64,000 nt of DNA from Girardia tigrina (taxonomy: Eukaryota), in assembly GCA_001938485.1 (NCBI GenBank), contig MQRK01179601.1, forward strand, positions 74,831 to 138,830. The letters run 5' to 3'. A program made the position numbers. Below are positions 57,467-60,342 of this stretch, piece after piece (position 1 is the first letter of the stretch; every line of letters begins with the position of its first letter).

Positions 57467-60342
57467 AAAGTAAATATTTTGTTTAATTTAACAATTTATT
57501 AATTAAAATTGTTCTGAATAAATAATATTAGACTCCGACATTTTTTTTCACTTTTGTGCTCTAAAAATAAAAAAAATCTTCTTTAATGTCAAATAAAAAA
57601 GTAATTTTTATTAATTGTGTTGATTTAACCACTTTTTATATATTTTCTCTAAAAGCGTTTTTATATTTGTAAAAATCCTTTTATTTTATATTGATATTCC
57701 TATTAATAGTATTTTTATTAAATAAAAACACTCAAATAATTCAAAAATAATAAAGAACGACATCTCTAATTAGAAAAAAAGTTTCAATCACATCTATAAA
57801 ACAATATTTGATAAAATCGACATACATTTCTTCTGTTCAACAATGTTTTTTATTAATTTCTTTCTGAAAGCATTCGCTTTTTGATAAATTGCCGATAAAC
57901 TTCAAATTTATTTTGTGAATGATATTCAATTTATTTATCTATTTATAATAAATTATAAAGATTTTTTAGAAATTTGACTAATATTAAATATTTAAAAATG
58001 TACCATTATGATCAAAAAAGTTTAAACTTAAACCCCGAAACATGAATCGATGTATTGCTTTTGCAAGGTGTCTTTAGGCAATATTTTTAAATATTACAAT
58101 TACTACTTAAGCACTCAAATAATATAAGGATAAAAATATATCAAAGAAGTCAAAAGTTTATGAAGAGGGATACCATTCTCATATAAAGGATAAAAAGGAT
58201 ACTCAATATCTACCCAAATTATTCTTAGCGTGACTTCATCAATTGTCTTCGTGCTTTTTTTTGAAAATGTCATATTTTAAGACTTAAATTTGTTAATTGT
58301 TTTCAAAACTGTTTTTATAATGGTTTTACTGACGAAATATGTGTTTTGGGGAATCAAAATGTTTTTGATTTTTAATGGGTCTTCTTTTTTTTCTTGACTG
58401 ATTTTGATTCCCGGCGGCGTAGGTAGGGCTTACATGCTGTCGCAAAAACCGGAAGAGTATCGGACTGGGAATCAATGAAGGATGTCAGATAGAAGAAGGG
58501 CACGAAGAGGAAAAATTTTAGAATTATAGATTCTTTGCTGGTGAAAAGAGAAAAATCTTTTTCACGTCAAAATGTCTCGAACCAAAATGTTGCGCACTGA
58601 TTGTTGTATCTCAGAGAAAGATGAGATATATTTATTTAATTTTATATTGAAGTTCAGTTTCTTCAAATTTTCGAACTGTGTTTTCATCAAATTATTCATT
58701 TCAAGTACAGCCTTATTCAAATCCGAAAAGAACTTCCAGACATCAATGTTACAATTTTTGGTCTCCTGGCTGACTTTATAAATTGGAGATTTTTTAACAT
58801 TAATAGCATTATTGAAACAGCTTTTGATATAAAAACTTTGTACATATTGGCAATGGTCCATGTCAAGTTGGGGTTGAGTATTTGTTTCTTGATTTCCTTT
58901 TAAAGCATTTTTAGAACCCTTGGAATCTGTATATTTTTGAACATTAGTTGTCGAACCTTTTTCCATACCAAAGACAAATGTTTTTTTAAAGTCTGAATAG
59001 ACTTTTTATTTTGCTGCTTTTTGGCTTCAACGATAGAGTTTAAAATAGCGGTATTGACTTTCTTTTCGTCGACATTGCTCATATATTTTGATTGAGCGAA
59101 CACTTTCTGTTTGACCTTTTTCGAATGATGAGCCACCTCGAAATTCTCTTTATATTCATTAAATACTTCTATAACTGTACAACTCGGAGACGAATTGATC
59201 AATCGATTCGAATTGTGAGATAGGACTTTGATTGGAGAACTTTCCAAAGATTCATGGAGCTTTAATTCTTCGATTTTTGAATTACCCATTTGCAATGACT
59301 CTATTTGCTTACACGCATGAACTCTATCGATTTTTACATAATCAGGATTAAAGAGACATTCATCTGTTTCATCAACACTATTAATTTTCATAATCTTATA
59401 TCGTTTTACTTTAAATGAAAATGCTGGATCTGAAACGGCTTCAGCAGATTTCCACTCGCAATAAATGTATGAAAATCCGCGAACTTTTTTTTCTGAGCCT
59501 TTCGATATTAAATCTAATACGTCAGAAATACTTACATTTCGCAATCCAAGCATCTTTTTAACAACTTTACTCTGATTTTCTAAATTTAATTCAAAATTTG
59601 AATCATCCTCACCATTTATTGAATTTTCGTCATTTGAATCTATTTTATTACCCACTTGAACAATTGCTAATTTTGGAATGAAATTCTTATTGCTAGTCTT
59701 TAACTCATCGATATGTAATTTCAATTTATCTCTTATTTTTTGAGACAAATCTTTGCCCGACAAAATTTTAGCTTCAGTTATATTTTGAGAACGTTTAAAT
59801 TCAATAAGTTTTGACAAAATTTTCTTTATTTTTTAACACAAAGGCTTTTACAGATTATTATTTTTTAATAGAACAACAAGACACTTTTTTTAAATCGATC
59901 ATAAAACATAAATTGCAACTCCAAAAAAAACTGCCAATTGATTGCGAGAAACAAAATTGTTAATTGCATAATTTGTGACAAAAAATTATTTCATTTAACA
60001 TATACTCACACTTTTTTGCAGTTGACAATATGTGACACACCAAACACACAACGCATGAAAACTCAAACACATTCACATATTTCTCTCCCTTTTTAACACA
60101 CACCCTAGCACACACACCACTCTGTCAGACCTAATTGGTCCATTCAAATCAAATGTCATTTACAATCACAAAACAAAAAAAATTTCAAAATAAAACATCC
60201 GAACTCAAATCTATTTGTTTTAATACATCAAAAATTTAATAACCATAGAAACACTCGTAAGTCTCAAATCGTTTAAATTGGCTTGTTAAATCATTTACAA
60301 AGAATTATGCCATTACAAAACGTTATGAACGTGATGGTTTTA

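What the first reader, a model, noticed from the sequence alone, without database searches (positions are those of the whole stretch)
58900..59817. In-frame fusion of MTHFD1 N-terminus to a CHD7/Kismet chromodomain
Seen: one 305-codon stop-free frame. Codons 13-62 match the start of C1-tetrahydrofolate synthase. They switch at ...KIDSN|DENS... into the first chromodomain, linker and start of chromodomain 2 of CHD6-9 (FSYIYCEW, LFNPDYVKIDRV), then into an unrecognised tail. No intron is visible and the MTHFD1 start position reads ATA. Known: these genes are unrelated and not normally fused. Inference: a chimera of two or more host mRNAs or exons formed by RT template switching or transposon capture, possibly at the GATTCAAAT (DSN) microhomology. 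Frame retention could be chance or selection.
Basis: partly seen in the sequence, partly recalled or inferred. Interest (0 to 1): 0.75.

Follow-up and report, generated by a model that had tools for sequence, protein, structure and literature searches.

The report
Mosaic of captured host gene fragments
One long open frame joins the start of a folate-enzyme gene to a piece of a chromatin-remodeller gene and an unidentifiable tail; it looks like a decaying copy from a small family of gene-fragment mosaics, a known by-product of mobile-element activity, not a working fusion protein.

Summary
A stop-free frame of 310 codons (58903-59832, minus strand) is the longest in the window. Residues 13-62 match the N-terminus of MTHFD1. 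Residues 60-191 match the chromodomain 1, linker and start of chromodomain 2 of CHD-type remodellers, whose closest solved relative is CHD6. The last 101 residues match nothing. Both parent types carry Asp-Ser-Asn at the junction.

New here: three database proteins show a small family of mosaics. P0001 joins a VPS33A-like piece, the same CHD piece and an E1/UBA1 piece. P0003 has the same MTHFD1 piece plus three post-junction residues. P0002 looks like the intact CHD source.

The window copy has no start codon for 88 codons, a shortened chromodomain 1, no catalytic or ATPase domains, and no predicted compact fold.

Most likely it is a non-functional copy of a host-gene-fragment mosaic made by mobile-element-associated recombination. 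Reverse-transcriptase template switching at microsimilarity is the best fit. However, no LTR, TIR, poly(A) or target-site duplication was found, so the mechanism stays open.

It is a new member of a known kind, of low to moderate interest.

The parts
58903..59832 (-). Stop-free frame of 310 codons, the whole mosaic reading frame. The stop codon is at 58900-58902.
59782..59832 (-). 17 open codons upstream of the MTHFD1-derived piece, with no ATG. They look like a 5'-leader.
59632..59781 (-). MTHFD1-derived piece, ORF residues 13-62. It covers the first ~50 residues of the dehydrogenase/cyclohydrolase domain. The initiator position is not a start codon in this copy.
59632..59640 (-). Asp-Ser-Asn codons shared by both parent types. 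This is the junction and candidate microsimilarity.
59245..59640 (-). CHD6-9-type piece, residues 60-191. It comprises the acidic lead-in, chromodomain 1 (with one in-frame deletion of about 7 residues relative to P0001 and P0002), the linker and the first residues of chromodomain 2.
59206..59262 (-). Residues 186-204, shared with mosaic P0001 but poorly with P0002. It is either a decayed start of chromodomain 2 or a further fragment. In P0001 an E1/UBA1 piece follows directly.
58903..59205 (-). Tail, residues 205-305. It is coding-like in composition but has no detectable relative. The only match is a sub-threshold Pfam Itfg2 hit.
58565..59005 (-). Second open frame of 147 codons in another frame, overlapping the end of the tail. 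It has no relatives and may be a further coding-derived piece. It was searched on its own and not joined to the first frame.

Best explanation
The locus is a non-functional copy of a mosaic built from fragments of unrelated host genes.

Composition of the mosaic:
- The 5' end of an MTHFD1 message or gene, with a short leader.
- An internal fragment of a CHD6-9/kismet-type gene, joined in frame at a shared Asp-Ser-Asn triplet.
- At least one further coding-like segment of unknown origin.

It belongs to a small family of mosaics that share the same CHD fragment but carry different partners. The fragments were therefore joined stepwise and the products were copied.

The most likely process (inferred, not shown) is reverse-transcriptase template switching at short microsimilarities between co-packaged RNAs. 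This has been described for LTR-retrotransposon-mediated retroposition. Further copying and decay would have followed.

The joining at a triplet encoded in the same frame in both parents explains why the frame is kept at that junction without invoking selection.

This copy cannot make an MTHFD1-CHD fusion protein from its own start, and it holds no complete domain.
For: Shown:
- The MTHFD1 and CHD pieces are real homologues.
- Asp-Ser-Asn occurs at the join in both parent types.
- P0001 (304 aa) carries the same CHD piece: 64% identity, 93 of 146 aligned positions. That piece lies between a weak VPS33A-like stretch (E 0.049) and an E1/UBA1 stretch (E 4e-5; Pfam ThiF E 4e-7).
- P0003 (85 aa) shares the MTHFD1 piece at 46 of 53 residues, including three residues beyond the join, then diverges.
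- Over 126 three-way columns the window agrees with P0001 alone at 25, and with P0002 alone at 9.
- No other MTHFD, CHD or SNF2 domain was found in 124 stop-to-stop segments across 50-64 kb, so this is not an exon of a parent gene in place.
- There is no ATG in the first 88 codons.
- Chromodomain 1 is shortened and Pfam Chromo is not detected.
- The AF2 model has pTM 0.25, and 123 of 310 residues have pLDDT<50.
- The window is rich in transposon remnants, including LTR-retroelement gag and pol pieces.

From the literature (PMC5131818, passages read):
- LTR-mediated retroposition copies mRNAs partially.
- It joins two or more genes at microsimilarities.
- Its products can be copied again.
Against: - No LTR, gag or pol sequence adjoins the ORF. 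tblastx of 57.5-60.3 kb against the rest of the window gave only 7 weak hits, all E>=0.028, and blastn found no second copy.
- No poly(A) tract or target-site duplication was recognised.
- Intron loss could not be tested, because no parent locus was available.
- The support from P0003 for the junction rests on three residues.
- The relatives may come from other species, so 'copied within one genome' is inferred.
- A 310-codon open frame in DNA of about 30% G+C, plus in-frame length differences between copies, could instead mean selection for coding capacity.
Confidence: 0.5

Rival explanations
1. DNA-level capture. The fragments were picked up from genomic DNA by a DNA transposon (Helitron or Pack-TIR type) or patched together during double-strand-break repair or replication-fork switching, and were then duplicated.
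For: - Mosaics with a common core and varying partners resemble stepwise capture as described for maize Helitrons (PMC3288121, search listing only).
- Pack-TIRs are reported in animal genomes (PMC8277862, abstract only).
- The window holds mariner, pogo-type DDE and zf-BED remnants.
Against: - No terminal inverted repeats flank the ORF. The longest exact inverted match between the flanks is 11 nt, equal to the shuffle mean of 11.0 (maximum 14).
- The fragments abut in frame with no non-coding spacer or visible intron remnant.
- Helitron termini were not rigorously searched.
Confidence: 0.25
2. A real lineage-specific chimeric gene, or an exon of one, kept open by selection and possibly carried by a mobile element.
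For: - It is the longest open frame in the window, with a chance probability of about 4e-13 from composition.
- The tail has a coding-like codon-position pattern: purine at position 1 in 63% of codons, and GC1 higher than GC2.
- Length differences among the window, P0001 and P0002 are all in frame.
- P0001 is itself open for 304 residues.
Against: - No ATG for 88 codons.
- No neighbouring exon-like segment with a domain.
- Only 14 of 22 columns that are invariant in four distant CHD proteins are kept, against 17 of 22 in P0002.
- No compact predicted fold.
- Only three close relatives among 1.84 billion representatives.
- Ascertainment bias: only open copies are predicted as proteins or flagged by a reader.
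Confidence: 0.12
3. Assembly artefact. Two or more unrelated reads were joined at a short shared string.
For: - The junction lies at a 9-nt string that occurs twice within 33 nt in the ORF (read).
- The window has 14 N runs.
Against: - P0003, from another data source, shares the MTHFD1 piece and three residues past the join.
- P0001 shares the CHD piece and the following 19 residues.
- The frame is continuous across all joins.
Confidence: 0.05
4. Remains of the true MTHFD1 locus. On this reading the promoter and first exon are in place, and foreign sequence was later inserted behind them.
For: The piece starts exactly at the parent's N-terminus and has an upstream leader.
Against: - No further MTHFD domain (THF_DHG_CYH_C, FTHFS) was found in 124 segments across 50-64 kb on either strand.
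- P0003 shows the same truncation point elsewhere.
Confidence: 0.05

Closest known systems
LTR-retrotransposon-mediated chimeric retrocopies (Tan et al. 2016, PMC5131818; the paper also cites maize Bs1)
   Same: - The host messages are copied only in part.
- Two or more unrelated genes are joined.
- The join lies at a short shared string.
- There is evidence that the product exists in more than one version.
   Different: - No flanking LTR-retroelement sequence was found here.
- Intron loss and DNA-level microsimilarity could not be checked.
Gene-fragment capture by DNA transposons: Pack-TIR/Pack-MULE (PMC8277862, abstract) and Helitrons (PMC3288121, listing)
   Same: Mosaics of fragments from several genes, acquired stepwise, sometimes giving chimeric open frames.
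   Different: - No TIRs beyond chance.
- No recognisable termini.
- The fragments abut without spacer.
LINE-mediated chimeric processed pseudogenes made by template jumps (PMC2104539, listing only)
   Same: Direct fusion of copies of different cellular transcripts.
   Different: - No poly(A) tail or target-site duplication was seen.
- Those chimeras usually involve abundant small RNAs (recalled).
MTHFD1 (C1-tetrahydrofolate synthase) and CHD6-9/kismet remodellers, the parent families
   Same: Clear sequence homology to the first ~50 residues of MTHFD1 and to the chromodomain 1-linker region of CHD proteins.
   Different: - Only fragments are present.
- There is no catalytic Tyr-x-x-x-Lys region (motif recalled), no NAD(P) domain, no synthetase domain, no complete chromodomain and no SNF2 ATPase.

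Membership tests
MTHFD1 / THF_DHG_CYH enzymes | Complete dehydrogenase/cyclohydrolase catalytic domain at or above Pfam's cut-off | tested here: not met
   21.9 bits against a 32.8 cut-off. Only profile positions 1-42 of 115 are matched.
MTHFD1 / THF_DHG_CYH enzymes | NAD(P)-binding domain and formyl-THF synthetase domain downstream | tested here: not met
   None in the ORF or in 124 segments across 50-64 kb.
MTHFD1 / THF_DHG_CYH enzymes | Sequence homology to the N-terminus | tested here: met
   E about 1e-6 to 5 of 5 PDB MTHFD1 sequences. P0005, P0006 and P0022-24 also match.
CHD6-9 / kismet remodellers | Tandem chromodomains recognisable as such | tested here: not met
   No Pfam Chromo in the ORF. 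Chromodomain 1 is shortened, and only the first residues of chromodomain 2 are present.
CHD6-9 / kismet remodellers | SNF2-type ATPase | tested here: not met
   Absent from the ORF and from 50-64 kb.
CHD6-9 / kismet remodellers | Homology of the fragment to the chromodomain region, with CHD6-9 as the nearest subfamily | tested here: met
   P0002 bridges the link: 54% identity to the window, and its best PDB hit is CHD6 2epb at E 8e-15. Profile A1 hits CHD6 at E 2e-20. The subfamily call rests on chromodomain 2 of the relatives, not on the window's own residues.
LTR-mediated chimeric retrocopy | Flanked by LTR-retrotransposon sequence | tested here: not met
   No gag, pol or LTR within 57.5-60.3 kb. 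The nearest retroelement remnants lie more than 20 kb away.
LTR-mediated chimeric retrocopy | Microsimilarity at switch points | tested here: inconclusive
   The Asp-Ser-Asn triplet is shared at protein level.
LTR-mediated chimeric retrocopy | Loss of parental introns | not testable with these tools
LINE-type processed pseudogene | 3' poly(A) tract and target-site duplication | tested here: not met
   None recognised downstream of the frames. The longest direct match between the flanks is 10 nt.
Pack-TIR element | Terminal inverted repeats around the captured fragments | tested here: not met
   The longest inverted exact match is 11 nt, against a shuffle mean of 11.0 and maximum of 14. The (TA)n tracts align only as low-complexity sequence.
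Helitron with captured fragments | 5' and 3' Helitron termini with a 3' hairpin | tested here: inconclusive
   Only one modest hairpin, at 58404-58475 (z -2.46; 3 of 200 shuffles fold as well). No termini were defined, and no copies were available to mark the ends.

The most novel reading that the evidence does not exclude
The window ORF, P0001 and P0003 represent a lineage-specific family of open mosaic genes, carried by a mobile element. Each is built around a CHD chromodomain-derived core with exchangeable partner fragments. Their reading frames are kept open by selection, for example as chromatin-reader-like or decoy proteins, in the way the Ssk-FB4 Pack-TIR family is reported to encode young proteins (PMC8277862, abstract).
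Probability: 0.1. Interest if true: 0.6.

Novelty: new member of a known kind. Interest (0 to 1): 0.3.

Why it matters
Mosaics like this are raw material for exon shuffling. A family in which the same chromodomain fragment recurs with different partners would let one date and order successive joining events. With the parent loci in hand, it would also let one read the junction rules (microsimilarity length, RNA versus DNA intermediate) in a poorly sampled, AT-rich animal genome. As it stands, this copy is best annotated as a chimeric pseudogene, so that it is not mistaken for an MTHFD1 or CHD gene model.

Tried and rejected
- **Direct domain calls on the CHD piece.** Pfam found no Chromo domain and PDB gave 0 hits at E<=10. 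The link had to be made through relatives.
- **Origin of the tail and of the second frame.** None of the following gave anything usable, and all remain inconclusive:
  - PDB: best E 0.5 for the tail and 0.15 for the second frame.
  - ESM Atlas: no usable hit for either.
  - The exhaustive representative search: no hit beyond residue 204.
  - Pfam: only sub-threshold Itfg2 (E 0.0013, 18.5 against 27 bits) and C2_CAPS. In the scan of 124 mostly unrelated segments, four chance-type matches appeared at E 0.003-0.008.
- **Idea that the tail is a decayed copy of P0001's E1 piece.** Rejected. The Smith-Waterman score was 24, and 1375 of 2000 shuffles scored as high. tblastn of P0001 found nothing in other frames.
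- **Second copy or parent exons in the window.** None found.
- **LTRs or TIRs.** The roughly 100-nt direct similarity at 57411-57507 and 60340-60436 is (TA)n plus AT-rich low complexity. It was not accepted as a terminal repeat.
- **RNA genes.**
  - Rfam: none at gathering score, and one chance-level hit at E 0.84.
  - tRNA: none found.
- **More family members.**
  - The 'shorter' search gave only P0003 out of 73 candidates.
  - The 'longer' search gave none out of 3111 candidates.
- **Fold search.** Not run, because the model (pTM 0.25) is too poor for meaningful matches.

Full report
**Setting.** The window is AT-rich, with 16-35% G+C per 2 kb and 30% around the finding. It holds 14 runs of N, which I left untouched. 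Remnants of several mobile elements are present:
- gag-like zinc-knuckle ORFs;
- an RNase H/integrase stretch of an LTR retroelement;
- a mariner transposase;
- a pogo-type DDE_1 transposase;
- a zf-BED ORF.

I do not take the contig for human. The organism was not identified.

**The observation.**
- The minus-strand ORF 58900..59817 is there.
- From stop to stop, the frame is 310 codons (58903-59832). This is the longest N-free open run in the window.
- In 200 shuffles of the window, the longest run averaged 110 codons and never exceeded 180. Local composition gives about 4e-13 for 305 stop-free codons.
- The frame has no ATG until codon 89. The start that the ORF tool lists is a bacterial-code TTG.

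**MTHFD1 piece.**
- Residues 15-63 align to residues 3-51 of the human MTHFD1 dehydrogenase/cyclohydrolase domain. All 5 PDB sequences found are MTHFD1, with E about 1e-6.
- Pfam THF_DHG_CYH matches profile positions 1-42 of 115 at 21.9 bits, below its cut-off.
- Four ordinary MTHFD N-termini from the exhaustive search stop aligning at 59632 (after Asp-Ser-Asn), and a fifth stops at 59638.
- The codon opposite the parent's initiator is not a start codon in this copy. Relative P0003 has Met there.

**CHD piece.** Pfam finds no chromo domain in the ORF, and the piece alone has no PDB hit. The link is made through relatives:
- P0002 (334 aa) is 54% identical over residues 39-191. It has Pfam Chromo (E 7.7e-19), and its chromodomain 2 hits CHD6 (2epb, E 8e-15).
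- A profile of the window piece with six relatives hits CHD6 at E 2e-20, then CHD4 and Chd1.
- In the exhaustive search, 24 proteins reached E<=1e-3. All lie within residues 10-204, and 16 of them are CHD-type matches to the chromodomain-1/linker region at 29-45% identity.
- Relative to P0001 and P0002, the window copy has one in-frame deletion of about seven residues in chromodomain 1.
- At 22 columns that are invariant in four distant CHD proteins, the window keeps 14, P0001 keeps 14 of 21, and P0002 keeps 17.

**The junction.** P0002 carries Asp-Ser-Asn opposite ORF residues 60-62, and so do MTHFD1 proteins. Both parent types thus share this triplet at the join, in the same frame. That is enough to explain why the frame is kept there. 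Whether the DNA of the true parents is identical over these nine bases could not be checked.

**A family of mosaics.**
- P0001 (304 aa) shares the CHD piece and the next 19 residues with the window: 93 of 146 aligned positions, 64%. On either side it carries other sequence:
  - a weak VPS33A-like stretch (E 0.049);
  - an E1/UBA1 stretch (PDB E 4e-5; Pfam ThiF E 4e-7, above its cut-off).
- P0003 (85 aa) shares 46 of 53 residues with the MTHFD1 piece, including three residues past the join, and then runs into unrelated AT-rich sequence.
- In 126 three-way columns, the window agrees with P0001 alone at 25, with P0002 alone at 9, and P0001 with P0002 alone at 13.
- These are the only close relatives found:
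  - near-length search: 2 hits among 1216 candidates;
  - shorter search: 1 hit among 73 candidates;
  - longer search: 0 hits among 3111 candidates.
- Their sources are unnamed contigs. I therefore cannot say whether they come from the same species.

**The tail and the second frame.** Residues 205-305 have no relative in any search. The exception is a sub-threshold Pfam Itfg2 match (E 0.0013, 18.5 against 27 bits), which I treat as inconclusive. The tail's codon-position composition is coding-like. It is not a decayed copy of P0001's E1 piece.

A second frame of 147 codons (58565-59005) overlaps the end of the tail in another frame and also has no relatives. The two frames were searched separately.

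**Surroundings.**
- The window holds no second copy of the locus.
- No protein-level similarity links 57.5-60.3 kb to the rest of the window (7 hits, all E>=0.028).
- No further MTHFD, CHD or SNF2 domain occurs in 124 stop-to-stop segments across 50-64 kb.
- Between the two (TA)n tracts that bracket the locus, the longest exact inverted match of the flanks is 11 nt (shuffle mean 11.0, maximum 14) and the longest direct match is 10 nt.
- The tracts themselves align only as low-complexity sequence.
- No poly(A) tract was recognised downstream.
- No RNA gene was found.

**Structure.** An AF2 model of the 310-residue frame, built with a 16-row alignment, has mean pLDDT 61.0 and pTM 0.25, and 123 residues fall below pLDDT 50. 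It shows isolated helices, including one long helix in the tail, and no compact domain. I ran no fold search on so poor a model.

**Interpretation.**
- *Shown:* the frame is a mosaic of fragments of unrelated host genes. The fragments are incomplete. Related mosaics with other partners exist.
- *Inferred:* the mosaic arose by stepwise joining at short shared strings and was copied.
- *Best-fitting known process:* LTR-retrotransposon-mediated retroposition. In it, reverse transcriptase switches templates at microsimilarities, copies messages partially, can join two or more genes, and yields products that can be copied again (PMC5131818; I read passages of the abstract and of sections 5, 10 and 19; its supplementary data sets were not seen).
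- *Against this:* no retroelement sequence adjoins the locus, and intron loss is untested.
- *Main rival:* DNA-level capture, either Pack-TIR (PMC8277862, abstract only) or Helitron (PMC3288121, listing only). It is not supported by terminal repeats here.
- *Other rivals:* a functional chimeric gene, misassembly, and a relic of the true MTHFD1 locus are less likely, for the reasons given under rival explanations.

**In print.** A full-text search for MTHFD1, chromodomain, chimeric and retrocop- listed 4 papers holding at least 3 of the terms. None concerns such a chimera, judging by title and start of abstract. Beyond that one search I make no claim.

**Verdict.** Its interpretation is partly supported: the chimera and the microhomology hold, but the mechanism is open. 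This is a new member of a known kind, a chimeric gene-fragment pseudogene. Interest is low to moderate, raised somewhat by the evidence for a family sharing one chromodomain core.

**Left unchecked:**
- the parent loci and other copies in the same genome;
- read support across the joins;
- expression;
- the closed collections.

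Noticed in passing
window 34696-36774 (-): Remnant of an LTR-retroelement pol, partly masked by N. It holds RNase H (E 9e-19) and integrase zinc-binding and core-start pieces. The three stop-bounded pieces lie in one frame, so at least two in-frame stops interrupt it. Only the first half of the integrase core profile is matched.
   Followed up: partly
window 12606-13584 (-) and 21996-22511 (+): gag-like ORFs with CCHC zinc knuckles. 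They are probably remnants of retroelements and are separate from the pol remnant.
   Followed up: partly
window 43933-44777 (-) and 47431-48375 (-): A mariner-type transposase remnant (Transposase_1, E 3.6e-28) and a pogo-type DDE_1 transposase remnant (E 3e-31). Both lie next to N-masked runs.
   Followed up: partly
window 52435-52812 (-): Open segment with a BED zinc finger (E 2.9e-5). It may be a hAT-type or ZBED-like remnant.
   Followed up: no
window 2876-3175 (+), 3475-5729 (+): An ORF with a DBF-type zinc finger (E 1.7e-15), followed by long ORFs with higher G+C (0.445 for 4845-5729) and no Pfam match. This is probably a host gene.
   Followed up: no
window 58395-58520: A G+C-rich island in AT-rich DNA just downstream of the second frame. 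It has a modest hairpin at 58404-58475 (-13.1 kcal/mol, z -2.46; 3 of 200 shuffles fold as well). There is no Rfam match and no other copy in the window.
   Followed up: partly
window 57420-57465, 60347-60390, 60888-60971, 63327-63508: Repeated (TA)n tracts, several with N-masked centres. Two of them bracket the finding about 2.9 kb apart, but they align only as low-complexity sequence.
   Followed up: yes
window 60514-60692: Two tandem copies of a unit of about 103 nt, 78% identical over 76 nt. Nature unknown.
   Followed up: no
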